Positions 3,520-55,979 of a stretch of 64,000 nucleotides of DNA are shown here, in pieces. The position numbers and the translations under genes were made by a program. How positions within the stretch are numbered: position 1 is the stretch's first letter; each line of letters starts with the position of its first letter. The DNA comes from an uncultured bacterium (GTDB taxonomy: Bacteria; Krumholzibacteriota; Krumholzibacteriia; LZORAL124-64-63): positions 320,001-384,000 of the forward strand of contig CAVSZB010000003.1 of the NCBI GenBank assembly GCA_963732385.1. Direction: 5' to 3'. Under the pieces are notes generated by a model. It did not search any database. It was given only the letters and a program-made list of their open reading frames with translations, and had not been told where the DNA came from.

Positions 3520-4032
3520 TCATGCCGGCGCGGTGTCCAGGCCCAGCCCCAGCAGGAAATTGCGCGCCTCGGCGACCGCGCCGATGGCGTCCAGATCGCG
3601 CGAAAGCCGCGGCGCCTCGCGCCCGAACCAGCTCGACGAACGGGCGTCGCGCGCGAGCGCCGACACCAACGCGTGCGCCTCCTCGATCAGAAGGATCAGG
3701 CGCAGGTCGTGCTCCTCGAGTTCGACCACCGTGTCGGCATCGCCAAGGCCCAGCCGGACCTGTCCCTGCCGGTTGAGGCGCCGGAAGATGACGCTGATCT
3801 CGTCGACCAGGCTGTCGATCGTGTCGTGCTGTTCGTCGGTGATGATTTCCGGCTGCATCTCTACGACCCGCAACAGCCGGTCGCCGCACTCCTTGAGTTG
3901 ACGGCCGAGCGCCAGACGCCAGGCGCGCTCTTCGGCCGCGGCCCGCAACGTACTGCCGTAGCAGTCGTAGGAGGGCATCCTCTGGATGACGTGCGCGAGT
4001 CTGGTATAGGAGACGGTGGCGGTCACGGTCAT
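3520..4032 (-). CDS. Hypothetical alpha-helical protein
   Basis: GGAG/AGGG RBS, GC3-biased codons, helical periodicity; directly upstream of 2807-3496. Confidence 0.65.
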   Translation of the reverse strand: MTVTATVSYTRLAHVIQRMPSYDCYGSTLRAAAEERAWRLALGRQLKECGDRLLRVVEMQPEIITDEQHDTIDSLVDEISVIFRRLNRQGQVRLGLGDADTVVELEEHDLRLILLIEEAHALVSALARDARSSSWFGREAPRLSRDLDAIGAVAEARNFLLGLGLDTAPA

Positions 4033-4296
4033 CGTCCCTGCTCCCCCGGTTGTCCTCCGTGCTGTCGTGGCCGGACGTCGGCCGGTGTTCACGCACGCAA
4101 CCCGCAAGGAACGTTCCCGTGGCGGGCGCGCCACGAGCCCGTCCGACCAGCGGAGCGAGGCCATTAACTCGTTGTGATCGTGCTATTTATGTGTCGTGGA
4201 GATTCCTGCCGACCCGGCAAAAACGCCGCCGCGCCGGAGCGCCGCGGGCAATTGTTCAAGGTGGCGCCGACGCGCGATGCAGATTGCGGCGGGCGC

Positions 4297-5181
4297 TCAG
4301 CGTGCGACGACGGGATTGAGCAGACGGCCGATCCCTTCGATCGCCACCTCGACCGTGTCGCCCGGCTTCAGGAAGACCTGCGGATCGCAATACGCCCCCA
4401 CCCCGGCGGGAGTGCCGGTGGAGATGATGTCGCCCGGCATCAGCGTCATGTGGCGGCTGGCGTAGGCGATCAGCGCATCGACCGGGAAGATGAGCTGCGA
4501 CGTCTGCGATGTCTGCATGACGGTCCCGTTCCAGCGCGCGCTGATGGCGAGCCCGGCCGCGAGATCGGGCAGTTCGTCCGGCGTGACAAGCCACGGCCCG
4601 CACGGGCCGCCAGTATCGAGACTCTTGCCGCGGAACCACTGGCTCTCGGACTTCTGTGCCCGACGGTCGGAAACATCGTTGAAGCACATATACCCCGCGA
4701 TGTGCTCCCGGGCGCTTTCGCGCGCGATGCCCCGGCCCCCACGGCCGATGACCACCGCGAGTTCCGCTTCCGCGTCCACCTGGTCGAGCCCGGCATCGAG
4801 TTCGATCGGACCGTACGGCCCCTGCAGGCACGACGGCGCCTTGGCGAACAGCAGCGGCGCCGCGGGCGCCGGCTTGTGCTGTTCCTCGGCGTGGTCGCGG
4901 TAGTTCAACCCGACCGCCACGATCTTCGACGGCTCGGGAATCGGCGGCAGCAGCGTGACCCCGTCCAGCGCGAACAGCGCCGTGGCCGGCCGCAATTCCC
5001 CCGGCTGACGCGCGCGCTCGCCAAGCGCGCGCACCCGCGCCATCAGCGCGGGGTCGGGGAGGATCTCGTTCCAGCGCGGCGGCAGTGACGGATCGATTCC
5101 GAGCAGGTCGAGTGCGATGCCGTCATCGAGAACAAGGCCGGGCCGCGCGGCGGCCCCCAGACTGAAAGTGATGAGTTTCAT
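4297..5181 (-). CDS. Fumarylacetoacetate hydrolase family protein
   Basis: KIVAVGLNYRDHAEE, DAEAELAVVIG, NDVSDR, GKSLDT..PCGP, PGDIISTGTPAGVG. Confidence 0.95.
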   Translation of the reverse strand: MKLITFSLGAAARPGLVLDDGIALDLLGIDPSLPPRWNEILPDPALMARVRALGERARQPGELRPATALFALDGVTLLPPIPEPSKIVAVGLNYRDHAEEQHKPAPAAPLLFAKAPSCLQGPYGPIELDAGLDQVDAEAELAVVIGRGGRGIARESAREHIAGYMCFNDVSDRRAQKSESQWFRGKSLDTGGPCGPWLVTPDELPDLAAGLAISARWNGTVMQTSQTSQLIFPVDALIAYASRHMTLMPGDIISTGTPAGVGAYCDPQVFLKPGDTVEVAIEGIGRLLNPVVAR

Positions 5182-5644
5182 GCCGCCGACTATAAGAGGA
5201 AGGCCATGACACTTCATAATGAAAAGGTGCATCGGCCTGGAATTCCGGAGTTAGCATGTTCTTCGGGACCTCGACCCATGCGCTGAAGATCAATAATTAG
5301 ACAACATTGATCGCGATTCAGCCGCGCAAATTTCCGCAGAGGAAGACTTGGCTGGTCGTAGTCCGATCTGGTCGCGCTGTTACGGTGGAACCTGTCCACA
5401 TATCGAGACCCATAGAAATAGATCGATGATCCGTTCGGAGCGCCGCCGGAAACTCCGCAAACGGTGCAGTTGGAATTGGCGTGGTGAGATGTCGGACCGC
5501 AACGGGGGGCCTGGTCCGGTGGCCGGGCGGGACCGGTGCGAATTTGCTAATCAAGAACCGAATTCAGTAGAAATCAAGCGGGGGGAAAGTGTATTTTAGA
5601 CAGCGGTGGGATTTTGGAGGGGCACCGACGAATGGGGGGGGGCA

Positions 5645-50774: not shown

Positions 50775-50993
50775 GGCCGCCCAGCCAGGGCCCATTTCGG
50801 CCACGCAGTCACATTGCAACCGGGAGGTGGGCCTATCGGAGTTCCTGGCTCCTGACATCGTTATATTCTGAGGCCATATCGCGGACCGTGCTCATTGACT
50901 CGCCTTTCCGCTGCTTCGAGCGGTCCAGCACTTGACACTCGGCTTAGTGAGTCGCTGCGCACTCCCTCAGACTCAAGCGAGGAGACCGGAAGC

Positions 50994-53015
50994 ATGAAAA
51001 AGGTTTTCCTGGGCACCGCCATGTGCGCGTGCCTTCTGATGGCTGGCCTGGCGTCAGCCCAGTTGACCGCCATTGATACGATCCAGACCTACAACCCCGT
51101 CACCGGTGCGCCCACCCCGTTCCCCGTCTCGGGCACCATCGTAACCGTTCAGGGTACTCTTTATGTTCTCAAGGGCAGTTTCAACACCGGTTCCCACTAC
51201 ATCCAGGCTGCCGACGCTGGCATCCAGGTGTTCAACTCCACCCTGAACCTGGGCACGATCGGCGACCTGATCGAGGTCACAGGAGCGGTCGGGGTATTCT
51301 CGAACGAAATCCAGATCACCAACCTGACGAACAACTCGATAATCTCGCATCCGGGCGAGCCGGCCCCGCTCGTCAAGACGATTTCCCAACTGGTGCACTG
51401 GACCGGCGGCGTTCCTCCCAGAGTCAATGACTACGAGAGTGTCGGCAGTTTCGTCCGGGTGACGGGCAACATCGCTACCGCCCCCACGAACAACACCCCG
51501 ACCTCGGACAAGCAGTTCAGCATCATGGCGGACGGCGACACCGTGATCGTTTTCGTCGATAAGGACACCGCCATCGATGTCGGCGCGGTCGCCGTGGGAG
51601 ATCTCTATCAGATCGACGCGGCCTGCGTGCGGTACGGCACAGCGCCGCCCGTGATCGAGCTCAAGCCGCGCTCCCAGAACGACCTGGTCGAAAACCCGGG
51701 GAGTCCGGCTCCCGCCATCGAGAACGTGATCTCTTCGAACTATCATCCGCTGTCGACCACGGCGCTGACCATCAGCGCGGACATCACCAGCGGCGGGGGC
51801 ACGATCAGTGGCGCCACGCTCTACTGGCGCAACAGCGCGGGCGACAGCCTCGGCGCCTACACAGCCACTCCCATGACTTTGGGCACGGCGCCGAAGTACT
51901 CCGGCGTCATCCCGACGCCGCACTCGGGCATCCGGGTGGACTACTACGTCTCGGCGACCGACAACCTGGCGCAGACCACCCTGTCGCCGTCCGCGGCGCC
52001 GACGGCCCACAACGAGCTGGCGGTCGGCTTCACGACGATCCACGACATGCAGTACGTTGACCCGAACGCCGTGAGCCAGTCGTCACCGTACCGCTACAAG
52101 GTCGTCAACCTCGAGGGCATCGTCACCTACGGTACCGGCGAGGCCGGCGCGGTCAGCAAGTTCATCATGGAGACGTCCACGGGCGGCCCGTTCAGCGGCG
52201 CCCTGGTCTACGACGGGACCGGCACCTACGGCGCGGTCTACACGGGGGACCTGGTCCAGGTCGGCGGTCGCATTGACGAGTATCTCGGCTGCACCGAAGT
52301 TCTGCCCTTCCGCAAGCCCGACGGCGTGCTTGCCGGTTCCACCGGCGCTCCGGTCTCCGTGCTCGCCTACAACAGCAAGTTGCCGGCGGCGATGTACGTT
52401 TCGACCCGGGTCCTGGCCGACGGCGTCTCGACCGATGGCAACGGCTACCTGGGCGAGGCCTACGAGACCTGCCGTGTCCGCACGAAGGCCTCGCTGGTGC
52501 TTCCCAACGCCCCTCTTCCCTCCCGCGGTTTCGGGATTACCGACACCGGCGTCCTGGCGGATTCGGTGCGAGTGGTCCCGCTGGTCGACCTCACGTATCC
52601 GCACACCGCGGGTGACTTCGTGGTGGTCGAGGGCTGGATGGATTACAACGGCACGTACATGCTTCGCCCCGTCCGGGACGAGGACATCGCGTACGGCATC
52701 ACCGGCGTCGGCGACACCACGCCGCAGGTGCTGCCCGCGGGCGGTTTTGTCGGCGTGTCTCCGAACCCGTTCAATCCCCGCACGGAGATCGAGTTCGTCC
52801 TGACACGGTCGAATCTGGCCCAGTTGAACATCTACAACCTGCGCGGCCAGCTGGTGCGCTCGTTGGCCAATGGTCACCTGGAAGCCGGGACCTACACGCT
52901 GGTCTGGGACGGGACCGACGAAGCCGGCAACCGCATGGGCAGCGGGACCTTCTTCGCCCGCCTGCGCATCGGCGCCGAGGTCATGCAGGTCCAGAAGCTT
53001 TCGCTCGTGAAGTGA
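50994..53015 (+). CDS. Large secreted protein with repeated OB-fold-like modules and C-terminal FlgD-Ig/secretion CTD
   Basis: Signal peptide; repeated 'GD.I/V.VTG.V..F...QI' modules; C-terminus SPNPFNPRTEI.F...IYNLRGQLVRSL...G.Y.LVWDGTD..G...GSG.FFARL...KLSLVK. Confidence 0.85.
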   Translation: MKKVFLGTAMCACLLMAGLASAQLTAIDTIQTYNPVTGAPTPFPVSGTIVTVQGTLYVLKGSFNTGSHYIQAADAGIQVFNSTLNLGTIGDLIEVTGAVGVFSNEIQITNLTNNSIISHPGEPAPLVKTISQLVHWTGGVPPRVNDYESVGSFVRVTGNIATAPTNNTPTSDKQFSIMADGDTVIVFVDKDTAIDVGAVAVGDLYQIDAACVRYGTAPPVIELKPRSQNDLVENPGSPAPAIENVISSNYHPLSTTALTISADITSGGGTISGATLYWRNSAGDSLGAYTATPMTLGTAPKYSGVIPTPHSGIRVDYYVSATDNLAQTTLSPSAAPTAHNELAVGFTTIHDMQYVDPNAVSQSSPYRYKVVNLEGIVTYGTGEAGAVSKFIMETSTGGPFSGALVYDGTGTYGAVYTGDLVQVGGRIDEYLGCTEVLPFRKPDGVLAGSTGAPVSVLAYNSKLPAAMYVSTRVLADGVSTDGNGYLGEAYETCRVRTKASLVLPNAPLPSRGFGITDTGVLADSVRVVPLVDLTYPHTAGDFVVVEGWMDYNGTYMLRPVRDEDIAYGITGVGDTTPQVLPAGGFVGVSPNPFNPRTEIEFVLTRSNLAQLNIYNLRGQLVRSLANGHLEAGTYTLVWDGTDEAGNRMGSGTFFARLRIGAEVMQVQKLSLVK

Positions 53016-53056
53016 TATGGAACGGCTAGTCAAACGTTGATTAGTGCGCTCCTCGG

Positions 53057-53085
53057 GGGCCCCGGCGACAGCCGGGGCCCTTCTT
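53057..53085 (+). terminator. IS-borne terminator-like hairpin
   Basis: GGGCCCCGGC-GACA-GCCGGGGCCC-TTCTT inside the IS end, just downstream of the CTD gene. Confidence 0.65.
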
Positions 53086-53099
53086 ACGCCTGGTTGTTG

Positions 53100-53260
53100 G
53101 GAGCAGGGACTGCAACGACGGTTGATCAGACTGATATCCGCGGGTTGGTTACCGCACACAATTCTGTCCGTCTCGGGGTGACCTCCGTCTAACACCGCGG
53201 GTCCAGCTCATGGCCTGCCGCATACTTCAAACGAGGATTCCCCTGACCGGTCCCTGCTCC
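53100..53260 (-). ncRNA. Candidate IS110 bridge/seek RNA in the 3' non-coding region
   Basis: Closed by an 11-bp helix GGAGCAGGGAC/GTCCCTGCTCC; contains segments matching the target (TGAAGTA, GTGTTA) and the circle junction (ATATCAG, ATTGTGT). Confidence 0.7.
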
Positions 53261-53270
53261 ACTCAGCGTC

Positions 53271-54386
53271 CTAGTGTTGCTTCGTGGCTGCGACCCACAT
53301 CGCGGCCCACACGAATCCACTCAGTTCACGGGCCACCGCGACGGCGACCTTGTTGCGATGCTTCGTCTTCTCCAGGTGATGGAATCGCCTGCCGAGTCGA
53401 TGCTGGGCCTTCACGGCGATCGCGACCATTTCAGGATCCTGACCCATCCGGCGGCGATCGAGGATCAAGGTCGAGCCTACCCTGTACTGGTAGTGCCAAG
53501 CGGCTTCGACTAGGATCCGTCTTAGGAATGTGTTGCCCGCCTTGGTGATCGAACCACGATGTTGTTGCTCGCCGCTGGAGTGCTCCTTTGACACCAACCC
53601 CGTGTACCCCATCAGCCGGTCCGGGTGACTGAAGCGACGGATGTCTCCGATCTCGGTGACCAACGTCATCGCCGTCAGGGTCTTGATGCCGCGGAAGCAC
53701 TGCAGCGCCTCGACGGTCGCCCGCCAGGGCTCGCGACAGGACCACTGCTCGATCTCGGCGTCGAGCGACCGCTGCTGAGACTCGAGGTACTCCAGGTGGT
53801 CGAGGTCGTAGGCCAGGACCGTCTGCAGCGGGCCCGTCATCTCGCGGCGCAACGTGGCCAGCCAGGCGCGATGCTGCTTCGTCCAATTGCTTTTGGTCCC
53901 GGTGAAACGATGTCCGTGGGTAGCCAGCACCCGGACGATCCGATGCTTGCTGCGCACGATCTGACGCTGCAGCGACAGTCGGCATCGCACGAGCTGGCGT
54001 ACCGCCTCTTGCTCCTCATCTGGTATCGTCACCGCCCGCAGATGGCCGCTGCGATACATGCGCGCCAAGCGCACGGCATCCAGGCGATCGGTCTTGCGGT
54101 GATCGCCCGGGCAGCGGGGGATCAGACTCGGGGCGATCACCTCGCACTGGAACCCATCGTGGTCCAGGGCCCGCTGCAGGACGTAGCCTGCACCCGAGGC
54201 CTCGTAGCATGCCCGCGGGGAGCCCTGCTTGGTCAAGCGGCGGAAGAGCCGGCGAACCGCGTTGAGGTCCCCTGGCAACCGGACAATCTCCGGGATGTCC
54301 TTGTCTCCAAAGAGGATCGCCGCGGTGATGGACTCCTGGTGAACATCCATGCCCACCCAAACGGTCGCTGTGCTATCGTGTGTCAT
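53271..54386 (-). CDS. IS110 family DEDD recombinase/transposase
   Basis: VGMDVH, YEASG, KTDRLDA (DEDD); GIKTLTA..LVTEIGDI.RF, GLVSKEHSSG (Tnp20 Ser), ITKAGN..LR, VAVAREL; frame intact. Confidence 0.97.
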   Translation of the reverse strand: MTHDSTATVWVGMDVHQESITAAILFGDKDIPEIVRLPGDLNAVRRLFRRLTKQGSPRACYEASGAGYVLQRALDHDGFQCEVIAPSLIPRCPGDHRKTDRLDAVRLARMYRSGHLRAVTIPDEEQEAVRQLVRCRLSLQRQIVRSKHRIVRVLATHGHRFTGTKSNWTKQHRAWLATLRREMTGPLQTVLAYDLDHLEYLESQQRSLDAEIEQWSCREPWRATVEALQCFRGIKTLTAMTLVTEIGDIRRFSHPDRLMGYTGLVSKEHSSGEQQHRGSITKAGNTFLRRILVEAAWHYQYRVGSTLILDRRRMGQDPEMVAIAVKAQHRLGRRFHHLEKTKHRNKVAVAVARELSGFVWAAMWVAATKQH

Positions 54387-54515
54387 GGCTGGGTCCTTTC
54401 GTGAGCGGGAGTTTCGGCTCCCTAGTGTCCCTGGTCCGTGCGGACTAACACACGATACCCGAGGGGCCCAGCCGTTCCATTATGTCTAGCGCATTCCGCG
54501 CACGGAAAACGCAGG

Positions 54516-54553
54516 GCGACCCCGGGGGCTTCGGCTCCCGGGGTCGCGTCTTT
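54516..54553 (+). terminator. Native terminator of the CTD gene (possibly bidirectional), displaced by the IS
   Basis: GCGACCCCGGGGGC-TTCG-GCTCCCGGGGTCGC-GTCTTT, 14-bp stem with UUCG loop. Confidence 0.75.
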
Positions 54554-54576: not shown

Positions 54577-55719
54577 TCAGACCTGCAGGGGAATATCGAC
54601 GGTGAAGACCGTGCCCACGGATTCGGCGGAGCGTAAGCTGACCGTGCCGGCCAGACAGCGCTCGGTCAAAAGGCGCGCGCTGTAGGTGCCAAGTCCGCGG
54701 CCGGGCGATTTCGTGGAGAAGGAGCGCTGGAAGAGCTGGCGCTGATGGTCGGGGGCGATGACCGCGAGATTGTGGACGCTGATCAGACAGCGGTCGTGGT
54801 CGACGCTCGCCGTCAGGGTGACCGTTTCCCCCTTGGCGCTCGCCTCCAGGGCGTTCTTGAGCAGGTTGCCGACGACCCGCGAGAGGATGCGTTCGTCGGT
54901 GACCAGGGGCGGATCGGCGGGGGGGGCGCTGAGCGCGATGGTACGTCCTTCGGCGACCGGGTGGTGGCTGTAGAGCCCGACGAGATCGTTCATCCACCCG
55001 CGCAGCCTGACCGGATCCGGCACGGCCTGCAGATCGCCCTTCTCGGCCCACAGCAGGTCGCGGTGGCCTCCGATCATGTCGGTCAGCTGCATGCTCAGGC
55101 GGTCGAGCAGCGACAGGCACTCGGCGCGATCCGTCTCGCCCATCTCCGGGATCAACTGCGCCAGGCCGCGGATGCCTCCGGTCACGTTGAGTACGTCGTG
55201 GAAGAAGAGACGCTGCAGCGCCTCCTTGCGGCGCTCCTCGCCGACGTCCCGCAGGCTGGCGACCCAGAGCGGCTCCGGAATGATGCCGGTGAGCCGTCGC
55301 ATGTGGACCTCGAACTCGCGCGTTTCAACGAAGTTGTTGAGCGACAACGAAACCCGCCACTCGCCTCGCGCGTCGCCCTCTGCGAGGCCGAGCGCGAGGG
55401 TGCGGTTGGCGCCGCAGGCGGCGCAGCCAGGATCGCGGGTGCAGATATCGGGGCCCTGCGCCGCCCGCGTGCAGCCGAACGCTTCACCCGGCCGCAGTCC
55501 GATCAGGGTGGCGCCGTCGCGCCCCTGTCCGAGTTCGCGCGCGCCGGCGCTGGCCAGTACGATGCGCAGATTTCCATCCAGCAACAACAGCGGTGATGGC
55601 ACGGCGGCGAAGAGATCGCACAGGCCGGGGGCTTGCTGGCGTACGGCGTCGGCCAGCGCACTGACCTGGCTGCAGCCTGGCGCCGGGGGCGCGATCCGGT
55701 TTGCTGTTTCTGCTGACAT
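54577..55719 (-). CDS. Cytoplasmic PAS-domain histidine kinase with Cys-rich insert
   Basis: LFFHDVLN H-box, NLLKNALEA, FSTK..GRGLG; PAS region with GEAFGC...C.....C..C. Confidence 0.88.
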   Translation of the reverse strand: MSAETANRIAPPAPGCSQVSALADAVRQQAPGLCDLFAAVPSPLLLLDGNLRIVLASAGARELGQGRDGATLIGLRPGEAFGCTRAAQGPDICTRDPGCAACGANRTLALGLAEGDARGEWRVSLSLNNFVETREFEVHMRRLTGIIPEPLWVASLRDVGEERRKEALQRLFFHDVLNVTGGIRGLAQLIPEMGETDRAECLSLLDRLSMQLTDMIGGHRDLLWAEKGDLQAVPDPVRLRGWMNDLVGLYSHHPVAEGRTIALSAPPADPPLVTDERILSRVVGNLLKNALEASAKGETVTLTASVDHDRCLISVHNLAVIAPDHQRQLFQRSFSTKSPGRGLGTYSARLLTERCLAGTVSLRSAESVGTVFTVDIPLQV

Positions 55720-55979
55720 AACGGGCTCCGAATTTGCGTCGCGGACCGATTCCGGTACGGCACGTCCGGCACGGGCGGGCGTCGCGGAATCCGGCTCCGG
55801 ACTACGGGATCGGCAGTTCACGCCGGGCCTTGAGCCTTGGTGCTAATCGATTCCCGGGCGCGCCCGGAGATCGTAGCGCCACAGTTGCATCTCTATAAAA
55901 ATGTCCTACCATGGTCCGGCAGTTTGTATAAGCAGCCCCGCGAGGGCCACGATTCTGGTCTCTTTCCGGGAAGGGTGAC

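What the first reader, a model, noticed from the sequence alone, without database searches (positions are those of the whole stretch)
53007..54493. IS110 inserted inside a stop codon, rebuilding both the stop and a terminator
Seen: removing 53014-54487 gives GTG AAG T|AG CGC, so the CTD gene originally ended V-K-TAG, about 25 nt before a UUCG terminator now at 54516-54553. The IS end supplies GA, so the gene now ends V-K-TGA with an identical protein, and a replacement hairpin plus T-rich tail lies about 40 nt inside the IS (53057-53085). Inference: the element end is adapted for harmless insertion at gene termini.
Basis: partly seen in the sequence, partly recalled or inferred. Interest (0 to 1): 0.75.

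Follow-up and report, generated by a model that had tools for sequence, protein, structure and literature searches.

The report
RNA-guided transposon that targets stop codons
This jumping gene appears to use a guide RNA to land in the stop codon of a large family of secreted-protein genes; its end rebuilds the stop, so the protein is unchanged, and many relatives also bring a hairpin that looks like a spare transcription terminator.

Summary
Confirmed and extended. The 1,474-bp element (53014-54487) is an IS1111-group member of the IS110 family. The empty allele (V-K-TAG) was found in a same-genus genome and in 3 of 4 public DNA runs. All 3 copies in this genome split the stop codon of a FlgD/T9SS-like C-terminal-domain (CTD) gene, in one orientation. 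So do 28 of 31 relatives in genomes and 52 of 58 in metagenomes. The predicted bridge RNA has guides spelling hydrophobic codon-Lys-stop, which covary with the target (0 of 10,000 permutations). A second clade targets stops of another C-terminal motif (WGxxKxxYR). Correction: the GA that rebuilds the stop is a family-wide end, also found in relatives that do not target stops, so it is pre-adapted. The adapted part is the guide. The hairpin has its T-tail on the host strand in 62 of 62 ends, but one subclade targets CTD stops without it. The short guide alone does not explain the CTD preference. No RNA, circle or termination was shown.

The parts
50895..53015 (+). Host gene ending in a FlgD_ig / T9SS-like C-terminal domain (…KLSLVK*); ORF from TTG 50895, an in-frame ATG at 50991 may be the real start
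   Evidence: PF13860 40 bits, cut-off 27; TIGR04183 21.8 bits, under cut-off 23
53006..53013 (+). Left half of target: end of Leu codon, Val, Lys and first base of the stop; matched by the 5' target guide
53013..53015 (+). Rebuilt stop codon: host T plus element GA (was TAG)
53014..54487 (-). IS1111-group element, 1,474 bp, three identical copies in the genome
53017..53027 (.). Sub-terminal inverted repeat at the transposase-distal end (11 bp; 3-nt terminal extension)
53028..53033 (-). -35 hexamer (TTGACT) of the predicted circle-junction promoter
   Evidence: function inferred from IS1111 literature (PMC11187229)
53057..53085 (+). GC-rich hairpin (53057-53080) with pyrimidine tail on the host strand; candidate replacement terminator; lies outside the bridge-RNA closing stem
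53099..53260 (-). Predicted bridge/seek RNA: target-binding loop, then donor-binding loop, inside a closing stem (53250-53260 with 53099-53110)
53131..53137 (-). Donor guide matching the circle junction (invariant in 30 or more of 32 aligned relatives)
53189..53195 (-). 3' target guide; its last bases read the stop triplet
53224..53231 (-). 5' target guide (TTTGAAGT); spells hydrophobic codon-Lys-T and covaries with the target
53271..54386 (-). IS110-family DEDD recombinase, 371 aa; motif positions D14, E62, D100, D103 and S271 read from the sequence
   Evidence: (NF033542 239 bits, cut-off 140)
54470..54480 (.). Sub-terminal inverted repeat at the transposase-proximal end (7-nt terminal extension)
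54479..54484 (-). -10 hexamer (CATAAT) of the predicted circle-junction promoter, 17 nt from the -35 in the circle
54488..54489 (+). Displaced AG of the original TAG (right half of target)
54516..54553 (+). Native UUCG hairpin terminator between the CTD gene and the convergent kinase gene, now about 1.5 kb from the stop
54577..55821 (-). Convergent HATPase_c (histidine kinase-like) gene; marks synteny with the empty allele

Best explanation
An IS1111-group RNA-guided insertion sequence whose target-binding loop has evolved to read the last two codons and the stop codon of a multi-copy family of secreted-protein genes (FlgD/T9SS-like CTD, about 95 per genome). Inferred from family knowledge: the element circularises, the joined ends form a TTGACT-17-CATAAT promoter, and the recombinase binds the RNA from the downstream non-coding end. 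The RNA pairs with NTN-AAR-T on one strand and with the stop triplet on the other, and recombination occurs at the T of T|AG, T|AA or T|GA. Shown in sequence: the element always lands antisense to the gene, and its family-wide GAT end turns host T plus GA into TGA, so the protein is unchanged. The end was pre-adapted; the guide was tuned. Subclade A1 (this element) and clade B carry different GC hairpins with a T-tail on the host strand. These most likely terminate the host transcript, replacing the displaced terminator and limiting antisense read-through into the guide RNA and recombinase gene. Selection against in-gene insertions, plus an unidentified extra determinant, sharpens the preference for CTD genes.
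For: Empty allele in a relative and in 3 of 4 runs. CTD stops hit in 3 of 3 own copies, 28 of 31 clade-A genome loci with informative flank and 52 of 58 true metagenome ends. 28 of 29 clade-A right flanks complete a stop triplet. Junction present in 45 of 91 family genomes, reversed-pattern control 0. Guide-target identity 5.37 against 4.54 of 8 in permutations, 0 of 10,000 as high, n=51; Lys guide with Lys target 38, Arg with Arg 7, Lys/Arg swaps 3, other 3. The 3' guide matches the stop triplet exactly in 22 of 26 and by G-U wobble in 3 more. Clade B: 7 of 7 at WGxxKxx[YF]R stops with matching guides, plus one copy in this genome. L100 has clade-A ends but a WG-motif guide and a WG-motif target. 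RNA fold: 97% of cells paired, 0 of 500 shuffles as high. Hairpin tails: 5.06 T of 8 on the host strand against 0.68 on the element strand, 62 of 62. 13 of 14 truncated remnants extend past the hairpin.
Against: The guide core is short. It occurs at 164 free sites in this genome: 8 CTD stops, 6 other stops, 21 intergenic, 129 inside genes. Seven free sites score higher than the occupied ones, 6 of them not at the stop of a long ORF. A blind covariation scan (29 pairs) found no extended guide. A downstream hairpin is not enriched at occupied sites (12 of 29 against 32 of 92 CTD stops). 13 of 15 A2 elements lack the hairpin. Three of 31 genome loci and 6 of 58 metagenome ends are off the CTD stop. 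The window hairpin fails the strict T-tail rule. No circle junction was listed. Related elements are not independent, so permutation p-values overstate.
Confidence: 0.8

Rival explanations
1. Survivor bias. The element inserts at any match to a short core (hydrophobic codon-AAR-TAR). In-gene insertions are purged and stop-codon insertions survive because the ancestral end happens to give TGA. There is no real preference for CTD genes.
For: 129 of 164 free core sites lie inside genes. The GA end is family-wide. The 3' guide reads TAG also in cultured relative L153 and in outgroup L064. All data are fixed or assembled insertions.
Against: With in-gene sites removed, CTD stops are 11 of 38 harmless sites in this genome, against 52 of 58 observed in metagenomes (a rough comparison across genomes). 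Guides track Lys versus Arg and switch to a second protein motif.
Confidence: 0.2
2. The hairpin is mainly selfish. It stops the host transcript from running antisense through the guide RNA and recombinase gene; host benefit is incidental.
For: It lies between the host stop and the 3' end of the guide RNA, on the host strand. The element is always antisense to the host gene. It is present even where the target had no native hairpin to replace (12 of 29 clade-A right flanks have one).
Against: Remnants that lost the RNA and recombinase keep the hairpin: 13 of 14 extend past it and 9 of 14 break at nt 55-115 (p about 0.002 against uniform; biased by the search anchor). Four such remnants lie in this genome. 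A2 elements persist without it.
Confidence: 0.35
3. The hairpin is a structural 3' part of the bridge RNA on the element strand and only looks like a terminator.
For: It folds almost as well on the element strand (-26.7 against -28.4 kcal/mol). Loops are not uniformly stable tetraloops on the host strand.
Against: It lies outside the closing stem. At least 4 T follow it on the host strand in 54 of 62 ends and on the element strand in 0 of 62. It is absent from A2 and the outgroup, which keep the same RNA core.
Confidence: 0.08
4. Coincidence at one locus or an assembly artefact.
For: The element is a repeat in a metagenome-type assembly.
Against: Three copies with distinct flanks, the empty allele in independent data, and dozens of relatives with the same junction.
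Confidence: 0.01

Closest known systems
IS1111 group of the IS110 family (ISEc11, ISKpn4, ISPst6, ISPa11; seekRNA, PMC11187229; bridge RNA, PMC11208160)
   Same: DEDD plus Transposase_20 recombinase, 11-bp sub-terminal inverted repeats with 7/3-nt extensions, long downstream non-coding end, junction promoter, no duplication, one orientation, top-strand match 5' of bottom-strand match.
   Different: The targets named in what I read are a short linear site, attC sites and REP sequences. Here the target is the stop codon of a protein family, and the element carries a host-strand terminator-like hairpin.
ISEc21 (IS110 group; PMC11187229 passage)
   Same: [quoted passage not shown]
   Different: ISEc21 lands inside the catalytic codons of another element's gene. 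Here the insertion is at the last base pair of the reading frame and leaves the protein identical.
ISPpu10 (bioRxiv 10.64898/2026.03.19.712850)
   Same: A short guide that cannot explain specificity on its own; a second layer is needed.
   Different: ISPpu10 uses a target stem-loop next to the guide match. Here a downstream hairpin is not enriched at occupied sites; a stem overlapping the target was not tested, and the second layer is unidentified.
ISSfr2-family transposase (nearest named hit in plasmids, 42.6% identity)
   Same: Similar RNA scaffold motifs downstream of the recombinase gene.
   Different: Different end and guide sequences; not at a CTD stop as far as its flank shows.
TA-targeting miniature elements that fuse to stop codons (e.g. 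ERIC in Yersinia; recalled, from no call)
   Same: The element end completes a host stop codon and adds RNA structure to the 3' UTR.
   Different: Not RNA-guided, make target duplications, and are not aimed at one gene family.

Membership tests
IS1111 group | DEDD (PF01548) plus Transposase_20 (PF02371) recombinase | tested here: met
IS1111 group | Sub-terminal inverted repeats of 11-13 bp | tested here: met
   perfect 11 bp at 53017-53027 and 54470-54480; criterion from PMC11187229
IS1111 group | Terminal extensions of 7 bp (left) and 3 bp (right) | tested here: met
   with ends fixed by the empty allele
IS1111 group | Longer non-coding region downstream of the transposase gene | tested here: met
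   257 nt downstream, 101 nt upstream
IS1111 group | No target-site duplication; one orientation | tested here: met
IS1111 group | Circular intermediate whose junction forms a promoter | tested here: inconclusive
   joined ends give TTGACT-17-CATAAT in silico; no circle joint listed in 4 contig sets
IS1111 group | Non-coding RNA with matches to both target strands, top-strand match first | tested here: met
   covariation, fold; computational only
IS1111 group | RNA co-purifies with the recombinase and is required for movement | not testable with these tools
   needs biochemistry
IS110 group proper (IS621 type) | Bridge RNA upstream of the gene, only short inverted repeats, CT core shared by target and donor | tested here: not met
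   RNA is downstream, repeats are 11 bp; donor has CT but targets have GT or AT, one base shared
IS1111-attC or REP-targeting subgroups | Target is an attC site or REP palindrome | tested here: not met
   targets are coding ends; attC-like or palindromic flanks seen by eye only in the outgroup
Intrinsic terminator (hairpin 53057-53085) | GC-rich stem-loop | tested here: met
Intrinsic terminator (hairpin 53057-53085) | U-tract of at least 5 in 8 after the stem | tested here: inconclusive
   window copy has 4 of 8 and fails, as does the native hairpin; relatives average 5.06 of 8
Intrinsic terminator (hairpin 53057-53085) | Transcript 3' ends at the tail | not testable with these tools
   needs 3'-end RNA-seq or a reporter
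T9SS type-A cargo (host gene) | C-terminal sorting domain above the family cut-off, in a genome with SprA and PorV | tested here: inconclusive
   PF13860 met, TIGR04183 just under cut-off; SprA and 5 PorV-family genes over cut-off in the genome; secretion not shown

The most novel reading that the evidence does not exclude
A lineage of RNA-guided IS1111 elements has evolved silent docking at protein C-termini. The guide encodes the last codons and stop of a C-terminal sorting signal, has been pointed at two unrelated signals (FlgD/T9SS-like CTD and the WGxxKxxYR motif) at least twice, and follows Lys/Arg and stop-codon usage of its hosts. Host-strand terminators were gained independently more than once and are left behind as host terminators when the element decays. 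An unknown second specificity layer, possibly tied to transcription ends, picks these genes out of the roughly 15-fold larger set of guide-matching sites.
Probability: 0.55. Interest if true: 0.82.

Novelty: new variant of a known kind. Interest (0 to 1): 0.72.

Why it matters
Bridge recombinases are studied intensively as editing tools, yet how a short guide avoids damaging the host is an open question (stated in 10.64898/2026.03.19.712850). This clade shows a natural answer not found in my searches: use a protein family's conserved C-terminus and stop codon as about 95 safe sites per genome, rebuild the stop and replace the terminator. It provides more than 80 natural guide-target pairs with Lys/Arg and TAG/TAA/TGA swaps, a ready test set for IS1111 guide rules and for whatever adds specificity beyond pairing. 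It suggests a natural scaffold for scar-free insertion at gene 3' ends, and a route by which IS ends become host terminators.

Tried and rejected
Extended guide: a blind scan of 4,720 RNA-column by target-position tests on 29 pairs recovered the known guide diagonal (columns 43, 44, 46) but no second run; low power. Downstream terminator as a structural gate: 12 of 29 occupied clade-A sites against 32 of 92 free CTD stops, p=0.52; rejected as a requirement. Wobble-aware 13-nt guide score did not rank CTD stops first. Tetraloop strand bias: looked promising in the first loci but loops are mixed in the larger set; dropped. Rfam: only a weak hit under the gathering score on the hairpin. Viral contigs: 0 matches to the element end. 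Sequencing runs: no RNA holder listed. Circle junction not listed in 4 contig sets. The careful tree did not finish; the quick tree was used, midpoint-rooted, without L056, L003, L073, L019 and loci lacking the 3' end. Footprint pattern: 11 hits against 12 control hits in 91 genomes, so no overall excess. One search used an off-frame slice for the CTD and is not used; its WG-motif protein had no NCBIfam hit. One search had one helix out of register; one search is the corrected count. Earlier findings of the scan: four look-ups returned nothing.
Full report
OBSERVATION. The element runs 53014-54487 (1,474 bp) with a 371-aa IS110-family recombinase on the minus strand. The host gene ends K-L-S-L-V-K-TGA, the TGA being host T plus element GA. 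The empty allele exists. Same-genus genome G097 has V-K-TAG followed by the same UUCG hairpin and the same convergent kinase gene. Contigs of 3 of 4 public DNA runs join across the element: X1 exactly, X3 and X4 with a synonymous Lys codon. Paralogues of the gene hit by the second copy show that copy's empty form within this genome. Neither passes the strict terminator scan.

WHAT IT IS. The ends carry perfect 11-bp sub-terminal inverted repeats with 7- and 3-nt extensions, the long non-coding end is downstream of the gene, and the joined ends give TTGACT-17-CATAAT. These are the IS1111-group features listed in PMC11187229. The downstream end folds into a two-loop RNA (z = -4.3). An alignment of 32 relatives keeps the fold: 97% of cells paired, 7 of 30 pairs with changes on both sides, 0 of 500 shuffles as high on four of five measures and 6 of 500 on the fifth. 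One loop holds a near-invariant match to the circle junction. The other holds two variable guides.

TARGET. The genome has about 95 genes ending in a FlgD_ig/T9SS-like domain and encodes SprA and PorV homologues, so these are probably secreted cargo (inference). All 3 copies split such a gene's stop codon (T|AG, T|AA, T|AG), antisense to it. Of 208 genomes of the phylum, 49 have a related recombinase. Of 33 clade-A loci (53% identity or more, plus frameshifted L018) with the distal end found, 2 had too little flank, 28 are at CTD stops and 3 are not (L016, L033, L035); two of the 28 are this genome's other copies. A metagenome scan for the element end gave 70 loci, 61 distinct with 100 nt or more of flank. 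Three are chance matches with no other element feature. Of the 58 left, 52 are at CTD stops; the others are L096 (inside a CTD), L100 and perhaps L143 (second motif), L108 (a non-CTD frame ending in Lys), L093 and L134. Overlap between the genome and metagenome sets was not removed. 28 of 29 clade-A right flanks complete a stop triplet (22 TAG, 5 TAA, 1 TGA). The junction is in 45 of 91 family genomes, control 0. Named records among the relatives are titled Krumholzibacteriia, Fibrobacteraceae, Eisenbacteria, Gemmatimonadota and Actinomycetota, as deposited.

GUIDE. The 5' guide equals the sense strand over hydrophobic codon-Lys-T. Over 51 distinct clade-A pairs it matches its own target at 5.37 of 8 positions against 4.54 in permutations (0 of 10,000). 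Lys guides go with Lys ends in 38 pairs and Arg guides with Arg ends in 7; 3 are Lys/Arg swaps and 3 are other. Its first two positions match poorly. The 3' guide reads the stop: TAG with TAG 17, TAA with TAA 3, TGA with TGA 2, TAA guide with TAG target (wobble) 3, and one row whose guide call differs. The guide order fits the IS1111 rule in PMC11187229. Kin share guides, so these p-values overstate. A separate clade B (about 41% identity; support 100 in a quick tree) sits at the stop of genes ending WGxxKxx[YF]R in 7 of 7 loci, with guides to match. One such element is in this genome, which has 17 frames with that motif. L100 has clade-A ends with a WG-motif guide and target, a natural retargeting.

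THE GA. All 10 outgroup elements (38-45% identity) end in the same GAT but are not at CTD or WG stops. Two cultured relatives on Cupriavidus and Bacillus plasmids share the end and RNA scaffold. Any insertion of this group therefore makes TGA on the antisense strand. The stop rebuild is an exaptation of a constrained end; what changed is the guide.

THE HAIRPIN. 62 of 95 distinct ends have a hairpin of -15 kcal/mol or better (51 distinct stems). In 62 of 62 the T-rich tail is on the host strand (mean 5.06 against 0.68 of 8). It is in subclade A1 (this element), in clade B (different sequence, nearer the end) and in L042 (a third form). It is missing from 13 of 15 A2 elements, 12 of which subclade's 15 members sit at CTD stops, and from 10 of 10 outgroup elements. 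Different sequences suggest independent gains, but the tree is unrooted and quick. CTD genes have downstream hairpins three times as often as other genes (32 of 92 against 32 of 300), so displacing one is a real cost. Of 14 truncated remnants, 13 extend past the hairpin and 9 break at nt 55-115; the search anchor and assembly breaks bias this. Four remnants lie in this genome, and an orthologue in G104 ends in a decayed copy that keeps the hairpin.

WHAT IS NOT EXPLAINED. The guide core matches 164 free sites here, only 8 of them CTD stops and 129 inside genes by my rough gene caller. Purging in-gene insertions would give about 29% CTD (11 of 38), well under the 90% seen. I found no extended guide and no requirement for a downstream hairpin. 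A second determinant is likely; ISPpu10 is a precedent for one.

MECHANISM, SHOWN AND INFERRED. Shown in sequence: ends, empty allele, target class, orientation, guide covariation, hairpin polarity. Inferred from the family: RNA expression and binding, circle, junction promoter, RNA-guided strand exchange. Inferred from form: termination, and whom it benefits.

PRIOR ART. Ten full-text searches showed no report of an IS110/IS1111 element aimed at stop codons or at CTD genes. The library lacks most subscription papers and ISfinder was not available. What I saw: PMC11187229, parts 1-3 of 9, section 13 and passages; its preprint, passages; PMC11208160, passages; 10.64898/2026.03.19.712850, part 1 of 8 and passages; 10.64898/2026.10.21.760802, section 8 and passages; 10.1101/2025.05.14.653916, passages; 10.64898/2026.08.31.748434 and PMC13626964, abstracts and outlines; PMC3196728, passages, not relevant. 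I opened no supplements; the target tables of these papers could list members of this clade without comment. The nearest precedent is ISEc21, whose guide reads codons of a conserved motif inside another transposase gene.

VERDICT. Real, general and probably undescribed: a known kind of element with a new target class and an added terminator-like module. New variant of a known kind; interest 0.72.

Noticed in passing
L156 / L165 (G096:C14, about 54853-54858); also L166, L167, L171: The orthologous gene in same-genus genome G096 carries a 5-bp insert (GATCT) exactly at the insertion point: the first and last bases of the element, leaving TGA. 4 of 11 pattern hits in 91 genomes are at CTD stops. 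It looks like an excision scar; the mechanism is unexplained and the overall pattern count is not above control.
   Followed up: partly
G000 C6 (L003, about 3884-5399) and 17 frames listed: A second family of proteins ends in a WGxxKxx[YF]R motif. The one member tested, without its last residues, had no NCBIfam hit. It is the target of clade B and may be another C-terminal sorting signal (inference).
   Followed up: partly
G000 C8 445420-445524, C5 377575-377633, C4 12097-12184, C7 1435651-1435738: Truncated element ends that keep the hairpin; at C8 it follows a CTD stop and at C5 a WG-motif stop, the other two flanks were not checked.
   Followed up: partly
G000 C3 169064 (+), C7 1313176 (-), C7 161203 and C4 220801 (minus-strand positions): CTD or WG-motif stops followed by sequence resembling a decayed element end, three of them read with a hairpin or end motif by eye.
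   Followed up: no
L064 (G156:C310), L062, L063: Outgroup elements at about 38-40% identity: L064 sits in an attC-like flank; L062 and L063 sit in short palindromes (read by eye).
   Followed up: no
L032 (G012:C71): An A1 element with hairpin whose guide spells a Tyr codon plus T and whose target is TAC T|AG; possibly a third target family, but the flank is only 4 nt.
   Followed up: no
L019, L085: Elements with internal deletions inside the predicted RNA; L019 joins the start of the target loop to the donor loop at a shared short repeat.
   Followed up: no
G000 C3 187265-196562 (-), C4 90457, C7 175704: Five near-identical paralogues of about 1,050 aa ending KMTLVK, three of them clustered on C3; one carries the element.
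   Followed up: no
window 53013-53015 and all CTD stops: 56 of 95 CTD stops in this genome are TGA, yet 27 of 29 clade-A targets are TAG or TAA; insertion converts the site to TGA, which no longer matches this element's 3' guide and may prevent re-insertion (inference).
   Followed up: no
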